From an uncultured Gammaproteobacteria bacterium (GTDB taxonomy: Bacteria > Patescibacteriota > Patescibacteriia > Patescibacteriales > GWE2-39-37): a stretch of DNA of 64,000 nucleotides. Each line of letters opens with the position of its first letter. Position 1 is the first letter of the stretch. Where the stretch lies: contig CAYUCS010000001.1 of the NCBI GenBank assembly GCA_964443495.1, positions 616,468-680,467 on the forward strand. Direction: 5' to 3'. Below, piece by piece: positions 38,033 through 56,115 of the stretch. A model generated the notes under the pieces. The model saw only the letters and a list, made by a program, of their open reading frames with translations. It searched no databases and was not told the origin of the DNA. The translations under genes and the position numbers were made by a program.

Positions 38033-38899
38033 TTATTTCTTAATAGCTAAATATTCCTTCAATGCCTCCTGCCAGCTGCGCATCTTACCAAGCTTCGTGT
38101 TAAGCAAGGTCGAATACTTTGGGCGTTTGGCGGGGCGCGGAAACTTTTCAGAAGACACCGGCACGATTTTTATCTTGACGCCGGCCTGCTTGAACAGCTC
38201 CTTGGCTGCGTGGTACCAGGTCACAGGCTTGGCATTCGTCACGTGATAGATGCCGTAGCCATAGTCTCCATCGATGATATCCTTGGTGCGCTGCGCCAGA
38301 TCCGGGGTATAAGTGAAGCAGCTGACTTCCTCGTTGACGATTTCCAGCTCTTCCTTTTCCTGGGCCAGCTTAAGCATGACATCAAAAAAACTGGGCTTGG
38401 CCAATTCGCTTTCGCCTTTGGGGCCGAACAATTTGGAGGTGCGGATGACATACCACTTAAGGCCGCGGCCGGATAGCTTGATGATTTCCTTTTCGCCCAG
38501 CAATTTGCTTTCGCCGTATTTGCTGATCGGTTTCGGCTCGTCATCCTCCTTGTAGCCCGCTTCGTTGTCTCCGGCAAAAACATAGTCAGTCGAATAATGG
38601 ACCAATGTGGCACCGATAGAGAGGGCTTCCTTGGCCAGATTCGCTACGGCATCGACATTCAGCTTCTTGGCAATCGCCCAACCCTCGTCGCTCTCCATGT
38701 GATCGACAGCATTGTATGCGACTGCATTGATGATGACATCCGGCTTTAAATCATCGATCTTCTTTTTGATCAGGCCCTTATCAGTGACGTCGATCTCGCT
38801 CCTATCCCAACCGACGACCGAAAACATCGGGTCAGCCTCGAATACCTTGATTAATTGTTGGCCCAAATTGCCCTGGGCGCCTAAGACTAATATTTTCAT
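38033..38899 (-). CDS. rfbD: dTDP-4-dehydrorhamnose reductase
   Basis: 288 aa. MKILVLGAQGNLGQQL Rossmann fold, then HYSTDYVFAG. Confidence 0.88.
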   Translation of the reverse strand: MKILVLGAQGNLGQQLIKVFEADPMFSVVGWDRSEIDVTDKGLIKKKIDDLKPDVIINAVAYNAVDHMESDEGWAIAKKLNVDAVANLAKEALSIGATLVHYSTDYVFAGDNEAGYKEDDEPKPISKYGESKLLGEKEIIKLSGRGLKWYVIRTSKLFGPKGESELAKPSFFDVMLKLAQEKEELEIVNEEVSCFTYTPDLAQRTKDIIDGDYGYGIYHVTNAKPVTWYHAAKELFKQAGVKIKIVPVSSEKFPRPAKRPKYSTLLNTKLGKMRSWQEALKEYLAIKK

Positions 38900-39552
38900 A
38901 TAAGTTTCAATACCTTCTCGATATATTCTTTCGCTTGCAGTTGTTCCACGAACGGATTTTCCATCTCTAAGCTTATCAAGTCTGGAAAGTAACCGGCGTA
39001 CTTGATGAGATAATCCAGCTCGTGCAAATCCTTCATGTAATGCTCGGCCAGCTGTTCACTGCTTATCAGTGAGATGTGGCAGCAGCCGACCGGATACTTC
39101 CCTAAAAGCCCGGACAAGGGGTTGCCCACTGTCGCCTTCTGGACGCGTGCATCCTCGATGTGCGAAAAATCCAGACACATGCCGGCGCACTTGATGACAT
39201 CCTTCTCTTCCAGCGGCTCATACTGGTTTTCAACGAAAATCTTGTGCATATAAGGCGCCAGCACAGCTGCGTCGACCGCCTGCGGATGGATATTGTACGC
39301 CTTGGTGCTGTATCGCTTTTCAAAAAGCTCCATTTCCCACGCCTCCGTGTCATCGCTGCGCAGATGCACATGCGGCAGTTCGCGGATTCCAGTATGCTCA
39401 AGCAAGCCATAGAGCTCTTTGCGCTCCTCGATTCCAAGAAAAGTCGGAAACAAAGCCACCTTAGTCAACCCCAACTCATCAATCTCCTCGCACTTTTTCC
39501 GCCAATCAGAATCAAGCGTCGTGGTTAGTCCGAGCAATATCTCCTTAGGCAT
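38896..39552 (-). CDS. hypothetical protein embedded in the rfb operon
   Basis: 218-aa ORF overlapping both neighbours by 4 and 8 nt (translational coupling). I recognise no motif. Confidence 0.6.
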   Translation of the reverse strand: MPKEILLGLTTTLDSDWRKKCEEIDELGLTKVALFPTFLGIEERKELYGLLEHTGIRELPHVHLRSDDTEAWEMELFEKRYSTKAYNIHPQAVDAAVLAPYMHKIFVENQYEPLEEKDVIKCAGMCLDFSHIEDARVQKATVGNPLSGLLGKYPVGCCHISLISSEQLAEHYMKDLHELDYLIKYAGYFPDLISLEMENPFVEQLQAKEYIEKVLKLI

Positions 39553-52063: not shown

Positions 52064-52108
52064 AAAAAAATACCCCTCTTTGCTTACATTATAGCAAAAA
52101 GGGATATT
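52064..52108 (-). terminator. rho-independent terminator of the secreted-protein operon
   Basis: 15-bp stem 52069-52083 / 52094-52108. Its two C-A mismatches on the plus strand become G-U pairs on the minus strand. A T7 run follows on the minus strand (52064-52070). Confidence 0.7.
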
Positions 52109-52138
52109 ATAAACAATTTCGAGTTCAATGAATTGATC

Positions 52139-53302
52139 CTAATTCTCGCCAACTTCTATCTTTCTGATGTTAATATTATTTATTCCCAGCCCAAGCTTTC
52201 TCATAACATTAAAGGCGTCTCCGGGCCGTCCAAGAAAATAGGCCTTTTTATCTTTTGGGTTTATGTAATATGCCTTACCCTTGTCCTCGACGTTAATTAA
52301 TATTCTTCCTAAAAGCTTGCCTGAAAAAACTTTAGTATTTTTTATAACATTATTTTTAACACCCAATCCTTGTTTTCTCATAACATCAAAGGCGTCGGCT
52401 GGCCTTCCCAAAAAATATTTTTTACCGGAATCGGGATTCACATACCAAGCTTGGCCCTTATTTTCAACTTGAATCAAAATTTGCCCCCTCATTCTCTTGG
52501 ACATTGCATCATCCTTTTTAACCAGGACTTTTTCCTCTGCGACTACACTTTTTATATCTTCCAGATTATTAGAATTGCCGGAGGATATACTTGTTTTTGA
52601 ATTATTATCAATTTTTATACCAAGTACTTTTGGCGGAGCACCGCTTTTGTCATCAGTAGTAGTTGCGATTTGGCAAGTCTTTTTGGTTGCAGCCTGCTGT
52701 TCGGCCGTCAAAGCGCATCCTGCCGGCATCTGTGTCACTACTGAGCGCACTTGTAAGTCGTTGGTGCAATTAGCTTGCCAAGAAGAATAAGACACTGAAG
52801 CACAGCTTGTTGGAGCTGAAACTGCTCCCCCGCCACCTCCTGAACTTACTGTAGAGCCTGTTGACCCTGAAGAACAGTCAGTATTTTTAAAAGACAAATT
52901 TAATGACACTACCCCTCCCTGAACAAATTCGCCATCATATTGCTGGACCAAGCAGCCAGATTCAGGCATTGCAACATTGGGTAACGTATATTTAAAAATG
53001 ATTGCCCCCTCATAGCTTTTTACAACCAATTTGTTTTTTATCGGATTATCATATCCGTATACCCCGGCCTCATCAAGAGTTACTGCACCTAACAAAGTCG
53101 AGCTGGCAAAAGCTAAAACCCTTGAGCCGAAAGGCAGCGGCGCACCATTCAGATTTACAGTTCCGTAAAAGGACATTGGAAATGAAGGAAAGATGGGACC
53201 AACCCCTAACCCTCCACCGCCAGTTGTTGTGTCACTATTTGCAAACGCGCCAAATGGCGCGAAGGAAAATGTAATAAAAATTGCAACAAAAATTCTCTTC
53301 AT
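52139..53302 (-). CDS. secreted hypothetical protein with two C-terminal tandem repeats of about 45 aa
   Basis: 387 aa. Signal peptide MKRIFVAIFITFSFAPFGAFA, a Gly/Ser linker, a 4-Cys module, then repeats GQILIQVENKGQAWYVNPDSGKKYFLGRPADAFDVMRKQGLGV and GRILINVEDKGKAYYINPKDKKAYFLGRPGDAFNVMRKLGLGI. Confidence 0.8.
   Translation of the reverse strand: MKRIFVAIFITFSFAPFGAFANSDTTTGGGGLGVGPIFPSFPMSFYGTVNLNGAPLPFGSRVLAFASSTLLGAVTLDEAGVYGYDNPIKNKLVVKSYEGAIIFKYTLPNVAMPESGCLVQQYDGEFVQGGVVSLNLSFKNTDCSSGSTGSTVSSGGGGGAVSAPTSCASVSYSSWQANCTNDLQVRSVVTQMPAGCALTAEQQAATKKTCQIATTTDDKSGAPPKVLGIKIDNNSKTSISSGNSNNLEDIKSVVAEEKVLVKKDDAMSKRMRGQILIQVENKGQAWYVNPDSGKKYFLGRPADAFDVMRKQGLGVKNNVIKNTKVFSGKLLGRILINVEDKGKAYYINPKDKKAYFLGRPGDAFNVMRKLGLGINNINIRKIEVGEN
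52181..52492 (-). repeat. two tandem coding repeats (52358-52492 and 52181-52318)
   Basis: About 60% identical 45-aa units (aa 271-315 and 329-374 of the 387-aa protein). Confidence 0.8.
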
Positions 53303-53306
53303 ATTT

Positions 53307-55874
53307 TTACTTAGACAAGGTCTGGGTCGAGGTGGTCAGACCAGGAACCCTCTTGCCGTTGGAGTAAGTCGGGGTGGTGATATCAGCGCCATCAGACCAG
53401 ACGAAGCTGCCAGCCACAGTGGTATCAGAACCAATGGCATAAGCGGCGTCCTCAACGATCTTGGTGGTGACTGACTCAGAACCGTTGCCAGAAACGCTGA
53501 CGGTAGCCAAGATTTCGAAGGTCTTGGAAGAACCGGCAGTGATAACTTCTGGGGTAGCACCGAAGTCAACGGTCACAGTCTTGTTAGCCAAGCTGACAGT
53601 AGCTGCGAAGTCCTTGGTAGAACCATTGACCTTGACAGCGTTGTTAGCGATGGTAGCGATCGACGAGTTGGTGGTGGTTGCATAGGTCAGAACAACCTTG
53701 CCCAAGGTAACATCGCCATTGGCATCAGCCGTAACGGTGAACTTGGAAACAACCTTGTCACCAGCAGTCAACAAAGTCTCAGGCAATGCCTGCAATGCGA
53801 CGGTCGGAACAGTCTTCCTGATGCGGAAGCCGTTAGCGAGGTCACCCTCATACTGAGGAGCAGACAAAGTGCCGGCAGAAGACTTGAATTTGACATCGGT
53901 CAAAGCGATCTGCAGATCCTTGTTGGTTGCAGTAGCGTCGTTGGAGATAGCATTCAAGGAGACCTTGACGGTCAAAGTCTTTGAACCATTAGCTGGAACA
54001 ACGACCTTGTCGTTAACCAAGAATCTGCCGATGCCGTTAACCAAAACGGTGGAATCAACAAGGGTAGCACCGTCGTACAAAGAGATGCCAGCGACAGTGG
54101 AGTCAACGGCAGAAGATGTAGCGACAGCGGTCGAAGAAGAGGTGTTGACGAAGTTGATTTCATACAAGGTAGCGGCGTCATTGACGGCGGTGAACTTGTA
54201 CTCAGCAACGGTCTGCTCTGCAGCCTTGGCAGCCAAGATAGCGGCCTGAGGAGCATTGCCACCCAATTCGACGTTCAAAGTGCCAGCGTCACGTACCGAG
54301 AAGACGGTAGAGGTGGCAACATTGCCAGTGGTAATCGCGGTACCGCGAGAATCCTGGGAGTTGATGGTGATCGGGGTCTGGAAGCCGCCGGTAGCGGAAG
54401 AATCGAAGGAAGCCTTGATTTCAATCTGCTTGGTGGTGTCCTTAGCGATCACGAAGTTCAATGAAGAGAAGGTAGCGCCAGAGGTGCCGAAATCGACAGT
54501 GTTGCCGACCTGGACGCCTGCGACGAAGAGCTTCGCGTCATAAACGGAAGAAGCCAGGGTCGAAGATGCGTTTGCGCCCAAAGCGATGGAAGTCACCTTG
54601 ACCTCATCGTTGGTAGCCTTCAAGGCGAATTTGCCCAGAGAGACATCGGTAGAACCCTTGACGACAACCTTGTTGGCAGAGTAGCCGTCGTTCCTTACAG
54701 TGGCCAAAGCTGCTCCCTGGACAGTGAAAACGCCGCCCATGGCAGTACCCCAAATATCATCAGAAGAAACGGCGTTTCCAAAATATGAGTACACTGGATT
54801 TTGATCAATAAAAGCAGTGAAGCCGTCAATTTTGACAAAAATGGAAGCATTTACAGAAGCAGTTGCCTTGGCCTTAACCATGACCTTGATCTCGTTGTCG
54901 CCCTTGTTCAGGGTCAGTGAACTAGTCAGGGTCTTGGACAAAGGAGCGGTAGAGCTGGCAGCCGGATCAAAGGAATCCAGTAGAGCGCCGTTCAGGTAGA
55001 CGCGGACGTTCTCAAACTGGTCAGTGGTGGAAGCAAACTGTCCGGAATTATAGATTAGGTTTAAACCATCGGCGATGACCGCCTCGTCAGCGCGGATATT
55101 GGCCAACAGAATGGTGTTATCAGAACCCTTAATGATAGTGGTATCAGCCGGGGAAGCCGATTTCTTTGAAATGACCAGCGTGCCAGTTGCTGTAACCGGA
55201 GTTGAAGTTGAAACGGGATTATTATTTTGATAACCACTATAAACTGCACCTGCATTACTGTAAACCGCATACGCCTTTGTTTCCCTGAAATCATCTAAAT
55301 TATTAGCATCAATCCACGTTGCGCTTGCCCAGTTGTCACTAATTTTTGTTGAATACCTTGACGCCTGGTTGGCTGTTAGGTCATAAACCGATTGAACACT
55401 GGATCCTAGACTGTCTAAGATATTATTTACATTATTTGTGTCTACGCCATCAAAATCTTTCTGATTTAGCGCATAGCTTGGATTAGCTACACCGACCGCA
55501 TTCCAGCCTGGCAATAAATTCCTTGAAAAAAGCCTTTCATTTGGCGCGACATTCTGCCTGTAGTTAAGAGTCAGTGTTGTCGTCGCGCCAGTTTTATTGT
55601 TTATAAAATAACCGAACAAAGGTACAAATTCTACCTGTCCCAAATCTGCCATAGTTGACCATCCCGTGACACTTTTCGGATTTAAAAGATAAATATCATA
55701 ATTGGATGAGGTGCTCGATGCTGAAAATTCATGAGACTCCACAAGTCTTGGGGTGGAAAACAAATTCCACCCTGGAGCGAGTGTGATTACGTGGGAATAT
55801 TCGGCAGCATTAGCCACTTCGCCCCCTGCGAGCAATAAAGAGAAGCAAAATAAAACTCGGGTTAAGGTCCTCAT
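53307..55874 (-). CDS. large secreted surface protein (candidate S-layer / adhesin), Thr/Ser/Ala/Val/Asn-rich
   Basis: 855 aa. Signal peptide MRTLTRVLFCFSLLLAGGEVANA. No Cys after the signal peptide by eye. Several beta-sandwich-like modules of about 90 aa (..KFTVTADANGDVTLGKVVL.., ..YKFTAVNDAATLYEINF..). Confidence 0.8.
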   Translation of the reverse strand: MRTLTRVLFCFSLLLAGGEVANAAEYSHVITLAPGWNLFSTPRLVESHEFSASSTSSNYDIYLLNPKSVTGWSTMADLGQVEFVPLFGYFINNKTGATTTLTLNYRQNVAPNERLFSRNLLPGWNAVGVANPSYALNQKDFDGVDTNNVNNILDSLGSSVQSVYDLTANQASRYSTKISDNWASATWIDANNLDDFRETKAYAVYSNAGAVYSGYQNNNPVSTSTPVTATGTLVISKKSASPADTTIIKGSDNTILLANIRADEAVIADGLNLIYNSGQFASTTDQFENVRVYLNGALLDSFDPAASSTAPLSKTLTSSLTLNKGDNEIKVMVKAKATASVNASIFVKIDGFTAFIDQNPVYSYFGNAVSSDDIWGTAMGGVFTVQGAALATVRNDGYSANKVVVKGSTDVSLGKFALKATNDEVKVTSIALGANASSTLASSVYDAKLFVAGVQVGNTVDFGTSGATFSSLNFVIAKDTTKQIEIKASFDSSATGGFQTPITINSQDSRGTAITTGNVATSTVFSVRDAGTLNVELGGNAPQAAILAAKAAEQTVAEYKFTAVNDAATLYEINFVNTSSSTAVATSSAVDSTVAGISLYDGATLVDSTVLVNGIGRFLVNDKVVVPANGSKTLTVKVSLNAISNDATATNKDLQIALTDVKFKSSAGTLSAPQYEGDLANGFRIRKTVPTVALQALPETLLTAGDKVVSKFTVTADANGDVTLGKVVLTYATTTNSSIATIANNAVKVNGSTKDFAATVSLANKTVTVDFGATPEVITAGSSKTFEILATVSVSGNGSESVTTKIVEDAAYAIGSDTTVAGSFVWSDGADITTPTYSNGKRVPGLTTSTQTLSK

Positions 55875-55929
55875 AATATTTGTTTAATATAAGATATAGA
55901 AATCACTATTCACAGCTAAAATTAAATAT

Positions 55930-55958
55930 ATAATACAATAAATATTCAAATTAGTCAA
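55930..55958 (-). promoter_or_regulatory. strong sigma-70-type promoter of the surface-protein operon
   Basis: Minus strand reads TTGACT-N17-TATTAT in an AT-rich region. Leader of about 50 nt. Confidence 0.6.
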
Positions 55959-56034: not shown

Positions 56035-56041
56035 CCATCTG

Positions 56042-56115
56042 TGGTCGCACCAGGACTCGAACCTGGGACCTCGCCGATGTGAACGGCGCGCTCTAACCAA
56101 CTGAGCCATGCGACC
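56042..56115 (-). tRNA. tRNA-Val (anticodon CAC)
   Basis: Hand-folded 74-nt cloverleaf: acceptor GGTCGCA/TGCGACC, D stem GCTC/GAGC, anticodon stem CGCCG/CGGCG with loop TTCACAT, T arm CCAGG-TTCGAGT-CCTGG. CCA is not encoded. Confidence 0.92.

What the first reader, a model, noticed from the sequence alone, without database searches (positions are those of the whole stretch)
52064..55958. Strongly promoted two-gene secreted-protein operon: candidate S-layer protein plus repeat-bearing partner
A near-consensus promoter (TTGACT-N17-TATTAT) in an AT-rich region and a dedicated terminator (52064-52108) bracket two genes, both with signal peptides. The 855-aa product is rich in Thr, Ser, Ala, Val, Asn and Gly and has no Cys after the signal peptide by eye. 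It has a distinct N-terminal domain (aa 24-270) followed by several similar beta-sandwich-like modules of about 90 aa. Its composition is so biased that many spurious ORFs appear in other frames on both strands. These properties are typical of S-layer or abundant surface-array proteins, and cryo-EM of CPR cells has shown surface layers of unknown composition. The window is also crowded with glycosyltransferases and a dTDP-rhamnose pathway, which could glycosylate such a Ser/Thr-rich protein.
Basis: partly seen in the sequence, partly recalled or inferred. Interest (0 to 1): 0.55.

Follow-up and report, generated by a model that had tools for sequence, protein, structure and literature searches.

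The report
Two-part wall-tethered surface protein operon
This operon in a tiny uncultured bacterium (Patescibacteria, probably Falkowbacteria) encodes a large surface protein and a probable wall-anchoring partner, built from domain families with no entry in Pfam or the PDB; it gives a testable candidate for the unknown outer coat of these bacteria but does not prove it is an S-layer.

Summary
Two co-directional genes with signal peptides lie between a promoter-like site and a strong terminator. Gene A (855 aa) is acidic, has no Cys once the signal peptide is removed, and is rich in Thr, Ser, Ala and Val.

Gene A has an N-terminal head (M3, aa 24-232; confident model, no PDB neighbour) and four homologous modules of about 150 aa (D1-D4). 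Most relatives (Falkowbacteria and related Patescibacteria, one locus in each of 27 genomes) fuse the same module array to a different head, M1.

Gene B has an N-terminal BN domain and two C-terminal M2 repeats. In 33 of 43 testable metagenome loci, an M3 gene is followed 1-53 nt later by a BN gene. BN proteins end in interchangeable modules: PG_binding_1, dockerin, M2, M1 or a terminal helix. I infer that gene B is a wall-bound adaptor that holds gene A.

D2-D4 is nearly identical in DNA to a long-form gene elsewhere, which shows a recent swap of the head end. This segment also has the most extreme codon bias in the window, consistent with high expression.

S-layer identity is plausible but unproven: there is no homology to known S-layer proteins, no expression data and no lattice test.

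The parts
56041..56115 (-). tRNA-Val (CAC). It is followed by its own terminator-like hairpin at 56038-56005 and marks the upstream boundary of the operon.
   Evidence: ARAGORN; terminator scan.
55930..55958 (-). Sigma-70-like promoter, TTGACT-N17-TATTAT.
   Evidence: 10/12 match. The same arrangement is found at a similar distance upstream of the orthologue in L001.
53307..55874 (-). Gene A, 855 aa: signal peptide, M3 head and four D modules.
   Evidence: Public databases call it from Met75 (P0001, 781 aa), which removes the signal peptide.
55806..55874 (-). Gene A signal peptide (aa 1-23, cleavage after ANA).
   Evidence: Read from the sequence. Orthologues P0004, P0005 and P0108 align from residue 1.
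55179..55805 (-). M3 head domain (aa 24-232), proposed docking domain.
   Evidence: 174 representative clusters match it, and it is N-terminal in 105 of 124. AF2 model pLDDT 93.8. No PDB structural neighbour. No Pfam or PDB sequence match.
54741..55184 (-). Module D1 (aa 231-378), part of the imported head end.
   Evidence: hhalign D1-D2 probability 88%. 53-85% DNA identity to L111. GC3 0.55.
54285..54740 (-). Module D2 (aa 379-530).
   Evidence: hhalign probability 95% to D3 and D4. pLDDT above 90.
53826..54284 (-). Module D3 (aa 531-683).
53310..53825 (-). Module D4 with the conserved C-terminal tail containing the WSD motif (aa 684-855).
   Evidence: The tail recurs in the M3-D proteins of other loci.
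53307..54713 (-). Recombination tract: DNA nearly identical (3 mismatches in about 1,400 nt) to the long-form gene on contig L111. It ends exactly at the stop codon.
52139..53302 (-). Gene B, 387 aa: signal peptide, BN domain, Cys-rich module and two M2 repeats. Proposed wall-bound adaptor.
52853..53218 (-). BN domain (aa about 29-150), proposed partner of M3.
   Evidence: Homologous N-domains occur in the genes just downstream of M3 genes in L001, L030 and 33 of 43 testable metagenome loci. No Pfam or PDB relative.
52658..52822 (-). Cys-rich module resembling a thrombospondin type 1 repeat (aa about 161-215, four Cys).
   Evidence: Read from the sequence. Conserved in the L001 partner. PF19030 is precomputed on related proteins P0152 and P0154.
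52325..52498 (-). M2 repeat 1 (aa about 269-326).
52148..52321 (-). M2 repeat 2 (aa about 328-385).
   Evidence: M2 always comes as two repeats (120 of 120 proteins) and is C-terminal in 96 of 120.
52069..52108 (-). Intrinsic terminator of the operon.
   Evidence: -22 kcal/mol, z = -5.2.

Best explanation
The operon encodes a two-part surface protein that is tethered to the cell wall.

Gene A is exported through the Sec pathway. It consists of an N-terminal head (M3) and four homologous beta-sandwich modules (D1-D4). This module array is the conserved surface protein of Falkowbacteria-like Patescibacteria: one locus was found per genome, and the gene is strongly codon-biased.

Gene B is an exported adaptor. 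I infer that its N-terminal BN domain binds the M3 head of gene A, and that its two C-terminal M2 repeats hold it on the cell wall.

Most relatives skip the adaptor and fuse the same module array directly to another tether module, M1. In this genome a recent recombination replaced the M1 end with M3 and D1, and gene B now lies downstream.

The module array most likely forms the cell's main protein coat, in the manner of an S-layer.

Shown: the domain architecture, the gene-pair rule, the interchangeable tethers, the mosaic structure and the codon bias.
Inferred: M3-BN binding, wall binding by M2 and M1, high expression and the coat function.
For: 1. Gene-pair rule. In the window, L001 and L030, and in 33 of 43 testable metagenome loci retrieved by M3 patterns alone, a BN gene follows the M3 gene on the same strand after 1-53 nt, median about 5.
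2. Tethers on BN proteins. BN proteins end in PG_binding_1 (six of ten scanned, E 8e-11 to 6e-20), Dockerin_1 (three above Pfam's cutoff), M2, M1 (L030 partner, 39% identity over 118 aa, E 5e-24) or a terminal amphipathic helix.
3. M2 behaves like an anchoring unit. It is always a tandem pair, usually C-terminal, and sits on proteases, nucleases, cohesins, CAP domains and others.
4. M1 heads other secreted proteins, such as roughly 265-aa cupredoxins.
5. M3 is a discrete domain with a confident model that directly follows the signal peptide in 105 of 124 representative proteins.
6. The core is four homologous modules, modelled at pLDDT above 90.
7. One locus was found in each of 27 genomes.
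8. Codon bias. In D2-D4, four-fold codons end in U 44% and G 6% of the time, against 18 +/- 4% and 24 +/- 5% in the other 47 genes. The same bias is seen in P0003 but not in its neighbours.
9. The mosaic breakpoints are clean.
10. Neither protein has an LPxTG motif, a transmembrane segment beyond the signal peptide or a lipobox, so some other form of attachment is needed.
Against: - No binding was tested. M3-BN contact rests on gene adjacency alone.
- 10 of 43 testable M3 genes have no adjacent BN gene, and several of these still carry D1-D4 arrays.
- M3 has four invariant Trp residues and other conserved aromatics, so it could bind a wall glycopolymer directly.
- The direction of the codon bias could not be calibrated, because no locus of similar GC holds ribosomal-protein genes.
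- Gene B uses many codons that are rare in this genome (AUA 41% of Ile, AGA 55% of Arg). That fits poorly with a partner needed in equal amounts to an abundant protein, although recent import from a low-GC donor also explains it.
- There is no similarity to any known S-layer protein.
Confidence: 0.55

Rival explanations
1. Gene A is the protomer of a true two-dimensional crystalline S-layer. The D modules tile the lattice, and the M3/gene B pair (or M1 in relatives) anchors it.
For: - S-layer-like composition.
- A tether plus tandem beta-sandwich modules; the long form has six, the same number of lattice domains I recall for SbsB and Sap (the comparison is from my own knowledge).
- One locus per genome.
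- Extreme codon bias.
- Conserved lattice domains paired with varied anchors, and co-expressed accessory anchors, are described for S-layers (bioRxiv 10.1101/2024.05.28.596244).
- The composition of the CPR envelope is unresolved (PMC5220378).
Against: - No homology or fold match to any solved S-layer protein appears among the 50 matches listed.
- The number of modules varies (3 in P0108, 4 here, 6 in the long form), which is unusual for a fixed lattice.
- No lattice or expression test was possible.
Confidence: 0.3
2. Gene A is a fibrillar adhesin or spacer. The D modules form a stalk that projects the conserved C-terminal tip away from the wall, to contact a host cell or a substrate.
For: - The best Foldseek matches are stalk-like Ig arrays: PrgB Ig domains (E 1.5e-12), chaperone-usher pilins and integrin legs.
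- The number of modules varies among relatives.
- Many Patescibacteria live attached to other cells.
- The C-terminal tail with the WSD motif is conserved across distant M3-D proteins.
Against: - TM-scores are only 0.1-0.2 at about 10% identity, so the matches are generic.
- There is no distinct adhesive tip domain beyond a tail of about 40 aa.
- Conservation is even along the array, with no variable tip.
- The extreme codon bias suggests more protein than is usual for an adhesin.
Confidence: 0.25
3. M3 is itself the anchor and binds a wall glycopolymer, such as a rhamnose-containing polysaccharide. The BN protein is then a separate, co-expressed wall protein and not an adaptor for gene A.
For: - M3 has many invariant aromatic residues: four Trp, plus Tyr and Phe.
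- M3 is highly conserved (45-70% identity) on very different proteins, as expected if it binds one shared ligand.
- Rhamnose-pathway and glycosyltransferase genes lie in the window.
- 10 of 43 testable M3 genes lack a BN neighbour.
Against: - The very tight gene pairing (77%, gaps of a few nt) needs an explanation.
- BN proteins consist of little more than BN plus a tether (about 200 aa in the smallest forms), which suits an adaptor.
- The M3 model matches no carbohydrate-binding fold in the PDB.
Confidence: 0.15
4. The M3-D1 segment plus gene B is a mobile surface-variation cassette that changes how the main surface protein is displayed, for example to escape phages or to switch host.
For: - GC3 is low in M3 (0.36) and gene B (0.35) and intermediate in D1 (0.55), against about 0.67 for typical neighbouring genes.
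- The breakpoints are clean and D2-D4 is nearly identical to a long-form gene elsewhere.
- The operon lies next to tRNA-Val.
- The P0004 and P0005 loci lie among defence and mobile-element genes, including a large serine recombinase.
Against: - The window shows no integrase and no flanking direct repeats.
- There are no phage relatives.
- This explains the origin of the cassette, not what the proteins do, so it is compatible with the main explanation.
Confidence: 0.1

Closest known systems
SLH-anchored S-layer proteins of Bacillota (Sap and EA1 of Bacillus anthracis, SbsB of Geobacillus)
   Same: A Sec signal, an N-terminal wall-tether module that other wall proteins also carry, then tandem beta-sandwich modules. 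Acidic and free of Cys. The description of Sap and SbsB is from my own knowledge.
   Different: No SLH domain and no sequence or fold match. The tether modules here (M1, M2) have no Pfam family. In this window the tether sits on a separate protein.
Two-component S-layer SlaA/SlaB of Sulfolobales
   Same: A large beta-rich outer protein and a smaller anchoring protein encoded side by side (from my own knowledge). The S-layer survey also mentions anchoring through co-expressed accessory proteins.
   Different: SlaB is anchored in the membrane by a transmembrane helix. Gene B has none beyond its signal peptide and probably binds the cell wall. There is no homology.
Cohesin-dockerin display on wall-anchored scaffoldins (cellulosome anchoring proteins)
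   Same: Cargo held on a wall-bound adaptor through a dedicated protein-protein module pair. Some BN partners carry true dockerins, and cohesin+M2 proteins exist in Patescibacteria.
   Different: Gene B in the window has no dockerin. The proposed M3-BN pair is unrelated to cohesin and dockerin, and its binding is only inferred.
Clostridioides difficile SlpA and the CWB2 family of wall proteins
   Same: A wall-binding repeat shared by many surface proteins, and a two-subunit S-layer complex in which one subunit carries the anchor (from my own knowledge).
   Different: The two SlpA subunits come from one cleaved precursor, whereas here there are two genes. CWB2 comes as three repeats and is unrelated to M2, which comes as two.
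Gram-positive fibrillar adhesins with Ig-like stalks (for example PrgB)
   Same: An array of tandem Ig-like modules. PrgB is the best Foldseek match, E 1.5e-12.
   Different: No LPxTG sorting signal. The anchor is at the N-terminal end, not the C-terminal end. TM-scores are only 0.17-0.20.

Membership tests
S-layer protein (functional class) | Exported protein with a signal peptide | tested here: met
   N-terminal signal-peptide-like sequence ending ANA|AE. Orthologues align from residue 1.
S-layer protein (functional class) | Self-assembles into a two-dimensional lattice that covers the cell | not testable with these tools
   No multimer prediction and no imaging were available.
S-layer protein (functional class) | Among the most abundant proteins of the cell | tested here: inconclusive
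   Promoter-like site and strong terminator. D2-D4 has the most extreme codon bias in the window, and P0003 shows the same bias. No ribosomal-protein reference and no expression data.
S-layer protein (functional class) | Homology to a described S-layer protein family | tested here: not met
   No Pfam, NCBIfam or PDB sequence match. None of the 50 Foldseek matches listed is an S-layer protein.
SLH-anchored S-layer proteins | SLH domain | tested here: not met
   No SLH match in gene A, gene B or the long forms.
SlaA/SlaB-type two-component S-layer | Partner protein anchored by a transmembrane helix | tested here: not met
   Gene B has no hydrophobic segment beyond its signal peptide.
SlaA/SlaB-type two-component S-layer | Large and small subunits encoded next to each other | tested here: met
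   A 4-nt gap and one terminator. The pairing is conserved in L001, L030 and 33 of 43 testable loci.
Cohesin-dockerin display | Dockerin or cohesin domain in the window's proteins | tested here: not met
   No Pfam hit in gene A or gene B. Dockerins occur only on BN partners at other loci.
Sortase-anchored Gram-positive adhesins | C-terminal LPxTG motif, hydrophobic segment and charged tail | tested here: not met
   No such motif; gene A ends ...TQTLSK.
Peptidoglycan-binding wall proteins (PG_binding_1) | PG_binding_1 domain in gene B | tested here: not met
   Absent from gene B. Present in the same position in BN partners at other loci, which is why I infer that M2 binds the wall.

The most novel reading that the evidence does not exclude
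The D-module array is the so far unidentified S-layer protomer of Falkowbacteria and related Patescibacteria. M3-BN is a new general docking pair, working like cohesin-dockerin, by which Patescibacteria display many different cargo proteins on adaptors bound to peptidoglycan. M1 and M2 would then be new wall-binding modules specific to this phylum.
Probability: 0.25. Interest if true: 0.8.

Novelty: new variant of a known kind. Interest (0 to 1): 0.6.

Why it matters
How Patescibacteria (CPR) build their cell envelope is an open question, and one paper read here says so directly (PMC5220378). This operon yields concrete hypotheses that can be cloned and tested:
- a candidate main coat protein;
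- a candidate adaptor;
- a simple rule for finding such pairs: an M3 gene followed within a few nucleotides by a BN gene that ends in a tether.

The rule covers many proteins now labelled 'hypothetical' and involves four domain families with no Pfam entry. If M3-BN binding is real, it would be a new modular display system and possibly a useful tool. The clean head-swap between nearly identical genes also shows how these organisms can change the attachment of a surface protein without changing the protein's core.

Tried and rejected
**Searches that found nothing**
- Pfam, NCBIfam, PHROGs and PDB sequence searches on genes A and B found nothing significant.
- Profile searches with the whole family, M2, BN and M3 against PDB sequences found nothing.
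- A Pfam scan of 22 BN domains found nothing consistent.
- tblastn of gene A against phage genomes gave no match.
- Literature searches for Patescibacteria with cohesin/dockerin, for CPR surface proteins and for Falkowbacteria S-layers found no description of this architecture.

**Structure searches**
- Foldseek with the full model returned only generic Ig-like arrays.
- The M3 model has no PDB neighbour.
- The M3 model has one marginal neighbour among predicted viral structures, a 'putative hemin binding protein' (E 3.6e-4, TM 0.49). I treat it as a weak lead only.

**Attempts that failed technically**
- Whole-protein self-BLAST for internal repeats gave no output. Segment BLAST and hhalign were needed instead.
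- The test for an empty site failed: exact-sequence look-ups of the flanking M48 peptidase, RNase H and P0001 were not on record.
- The cluster look-up gave no accession or organism name.
- No other held locus (L001-L111) nor the window has ribosomal-protein genes (L030 supplied the queries), so the codon bias could not be calibrated.

**Ideas tested and dropped**
- I looked for island boundaries as direct repeats around the operon. Only the internal M2 repeat and chance matches appeared.
- I considered a sortase, lipoprotein or membrane anchor and rejected all three.
- I considered the missing Shine-Dalgarno sequence as evidence against high expression, and rejected it because the genome hardly uses them.
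- An apparent hit of the LN2 profile inside M3 is an artefact: short-form sequences were misaligned into those columns of alignment A1.

Full report
**1. What is in the sequence**

Gene A (53307-55874, minus strand, 855 aa) and gene B (52139-53302, 387 aa) are co-directional and 4 nt apart.

Upstream lie tRNA-Val (56041-56115) with its own terminator-like hairpin, and then an AT-rich spacer. The spacer holds TTGACT-N17-TATTAT at 55958-55930. Downstream is a hairpin with a 16-bp stem and a T-run (52108-52069). It folds at -22 kcal/mol, z = -5.2.

A 10/12 promoter match is not rare in itself. However, the orthologous locus L001 has TTGACT-N17-TATATT at nearly the same distance from its start codon. 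The genome hardly uses Shine-Dalgarno sequences (6 of 50 genes).

Both products begin with signal-peptide-like sequences. Without its signal peptide, gene A has pI 4.9, no Cys, and is rich in Ala, Thr, Ser, Val, Asn and Gly. Gene B is basic (pI 9.3) and has six Cys. Neither has an LPxTG motif, a lipobox or a transmembrane segment beyond the signal peptide.

The window also holds RmlA, RmlD and RmlB-type genes, several GT2 and GT4 glycosyltransferases, a priming sugar transferase and MurJ.

**2. Gene A: a swappable head and a conserved module array**

Neither protein has a significant Pfam, NCBIfam, PHROGs or PDB sequence match.

Gene A has 199 homologues, and nearly all the named ones are from Candidatus Falkowbacteria or 'Patescibacteria group'. 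Most are about 1,165 aa and match only aa 230-855 of gene A. A few (P0004, P0005) match along the full length.

A scan of species-representative genomes found 27 loci, each in a different assembly. All of them match only the core.

AlphaFold2 models aa 231-855 at pLDDT above 90 as all-beta. Profile comparison divides this core into four homologous modules of about 150 aa:

| Module | Residues |
|---|---|
| D1 | 231-378 |
| D2 | 379-530 |
| D3 | 531-683 |
| D4 | 684-855 |

The hhalign probabilities are 88-95% for D1-D2, D2-D3, D2-D4 and D3-D4. The long form has two further modules of the same type, plus an unrelated head of about 190 aa, which I call M1.

Foldseek against the PDB returns only generic Ig-like arrays: the PrgB stalk, chaperone-usher pilins, integrins and alpha-2-macroglobulin. 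TM-scores are 0.1-0.2 and identity about 10%. No S-layer protein is among the 50 matches listed. A whole-family profile finds no PDB sequence at all.

**3. Four uncharacterised modules**

*M3, the head of gene A (aa 24-232).*
- It matches 174 representative clusters, 124 of them at E <= 1e-30.
- It follows the signal peptide directly in 105 of 124 proteins, whose lengths run from 209 to 2,394 aa.
- With an alignment of 32 sequences it folds confidently (pLDDT 93.8, pTM 0.89).
- It has no PDB structural neighbour (best E 0.03). It has one marginal neighbour among predicted viral structures.

*M2, the C-terminal repeat of gene B.*
- The search found 939 proteins carrying it. It is fused to trypsin-like and subtilisin proteases, cohesin, CAP, thermonuclease, beta-helix and other extracellular domains.
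- It always comes as exactly two repeats (120 of 120) and is C-terminal in 96 of 120.

*M1, the head of the long form.*
- It also heads small cupredoxins and other secreted proteins.

*BN, the N-terminal domain of gene B (aa about 29-150).*
- It has no Pfam or PDB relative.

**4. The gene-pair rule**

The gene after P0004 (L001) is a clear homologue of gene B, with BN, the Cys-rich region and both M2 repeats.

The gene after P0108 (L030) shares only BN with gene B (40% identity, E 8e-30).

I then fetched 80 metagenome loci using M3 patterns alone. Of the 43 M3 genes with at least 450 nt of downstream sequence, 33 are followed on the same strand by a BN gene. The gaps are 1-53 nt, median about 5. 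Of 47 complete M3 proteins, 33 carry D-type modules.

BN proteins end in one of several modules:
- PG_binding_1: six of the ten scanned with Pfam, E 8e-11 to 6e-20.
- Dockerin_1: three above Pfam's cutoff and one weak.
- M2.
- M1: the L030 partner, 39% identity over 118 aa to the head of P0003, E 5e-24.
- A Gly-rich linker followed by a terminal amphipathic helix.

Cohesin+M2 proteins of about 295 aa also exist, one of them in the genome that encodes P0003.

Because M2 and M1 occupy the same position as a recognised peptidoglycan-binding domain, I infer that both attach proteins to the cell wall. Because BN proteins are little more than BN plus a tether, I infer that they are adaptors for the M3 protein encoded just upstream.

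The rule is frequent but not absolute. Ten testable loci lack a BN neighbour, and some of them encode full M3-D1-D4 arrays.

**5. Mosaic origin**

| Segment | GC3 |
|---|---|
| M3 (with signal peptide, aa 1-230) | 0.36 |
| D1 | 0.55 |
| D2-D4 | 0.60-0.65 |
| Gene B | 0.35 |
| Typical neighbouring gene | about 0.67 |

The long-form protein P0002 is 99-100% identical to gene A across D2-D4, 71% identical in D1 and unrelated before that.

At the DNA level, its contig L111 matches the window with 3 mismatches in about 1,400 nt, from about 54713 to the stop codon at 53307. Identity is 53-85% across D1 and absent on either side. The flanks of L111 match nothing in the window.

So the head end of an otherwise identical gene was exchanged very recently. 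Gene conversion between a resident long form and an incoming short-form cassette would explain why the tract ends exactly where homology ends, but this is inference.

The other short-form loci lie among defence and mobile-element genes. P0005 is next to a large serine recombinase.

**6. Expression**

No expression data were available. The indirect evidence is codon bias.

In D2-D4, four-fold codon families end in U 44% of the time and in G 6%. In the other 47 genes the figures are 18 +/- 4% (maximum 26%) and 24 +/- 5% (minimum 14%).

The long-form gene P0003 shows the same bias along its whole length. Its neighbours do not, and they include two other surface proteins of 1,227 and 1,410 aa. The bias is therefore specific to this gene.

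I could not calibrate its direction against ribosomal-protein genes from a genome of similar GC. The bias is consistent with high expression but does not prove it.

**7. Interpretation**

The best-supported reading is a two-part, wall-tethered surface protein (confidence 0.55). Gene A is the cargo, and gene B holds it through M3-BN contact and binds the wall through M2. Relatives achieve the same result with a direct M1 fusion.

The function of the D array is not settled. A main protein coat fits these points:
- the composition;
- one locus per genome;
- the codon bias;
- the parallel with SLH-anchored S-layer proteins and with the modular anchors described for bacterial S-layers.

A true crystalline S-layer gets about 0.3. 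There is no homology to known S-layer proteins, the number of modules varies, and neither lattice formation nor abundance could be tested.

A fibrillar adhesin or spacer gets about 0.25.

The other rivals are M3 acting as a direct glycan-binding anchor, and the cassette acting as a mobile surface-variation unit.

**8. Novelty**

Wall-binding modules, adaptor proteins and two-subunit S-layers are all known concepts. What is new here:
- four domain families with no Pfam entry;
- the M3-to-BN gene-pair rule;
- the interchangeable set of tethers;
- the clean head-swap.

The papers I could search do not describe any of this. One survey predicts a novel class of S-layer protein in Paceibacterales but does not give enough detail to compare.

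I rate this a new variant of a known kind, with interest 0.6.

Noticed in passing
window 55653-55874 (gene A aa 1-74): The public database copy of gene A (P0001, 781 aa) starts at Met75. That cuts off the signal peptide and the first third of the M3 domain. Orthologues P0004, P0005 and P0108 align from residue 1 of the 855-aa form.
   Followed up: yes
L002 7780-8000 and L111 290-512: Long-form genes share a conserved GC-rich leader with no sigma-70-like promoter. The leader has a short hairpin (CGTCCC...GGGACG) just before the start codon. In L002 an ECF sigma factor and a DUF5667 gene lie directly upstream, so the long form may be under ECF control.
   Followed up: partly
L001 (P0004 locus) and the P0005 contig: The other short-form operons sit among defence and mobile-element genes: SduA_C, DndB, GIY-YIG, AAA_13 and a DnaA/IstB-like gene in L001; a large serine recombinase and a DNA methyltransferase beside P0005. 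L001 has only 32% GC.
   Followed up: partly
window 52658-52822 (gene B aa 161-215): A small module with four Cys, whose pattern (YSSWQANC...Q.R...C...C) resembles a thrombospondin type 1 repeat. It is conserved in the L001 partner. Related proteins carry a precomputed PF19030 hit.
   Followed up: partly
Proteins P0170, P0192, P0195, P0222, P0231, P0235: Proteins of about 295 aa that combine a cohesin domain (PF00963) with the M2 repeat pair. P0231 comes from the same Falkowbacteria assembly as P0003. Together with BN-dockerin proteins, this suggests a cohesin-dockerin display layer in Patescibacteria.
   Followed up: no
window 38896-39552: The 218-aa ORF between the RmlD-type and RmlB-type genes, where RmlC would be expected, has no Pfam match at E <= 1e-5.
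   Followed up: no
whole window: Only 6 of 50 genes have even a 4-nt Shine-Dalgarno core upstream. This genome seems to start translation without Shine-Dalgarno pairing.
   Followed up: yes
P0390 (aa 1210-1401), P0366, P0373, P0377: The M3 domain is internal in 19 of 124 representative proteins. In P0390 (2,394 aa) it follows a subtilase, a beta-helix and an Ig-like domain.
   Followed up: no
L005, L006, L008, L014 and others: Several assemblies that carry the long-form gene at 54-61% identity are titled 'uncultured Gammaproteobacteria' or 'Bacillota'. The titles look wrong for genomes carrying this Patescibacteria-type gene.
   Followed up: no
M3 model m971d464d65ce: The only structural neighbour of M3 with E < 0.001 is a predicted 'putative hemin binding protein' of an uncultured marine phage (E 3.6e-4, TM 0.49, 11% identity).
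   Followed up: no
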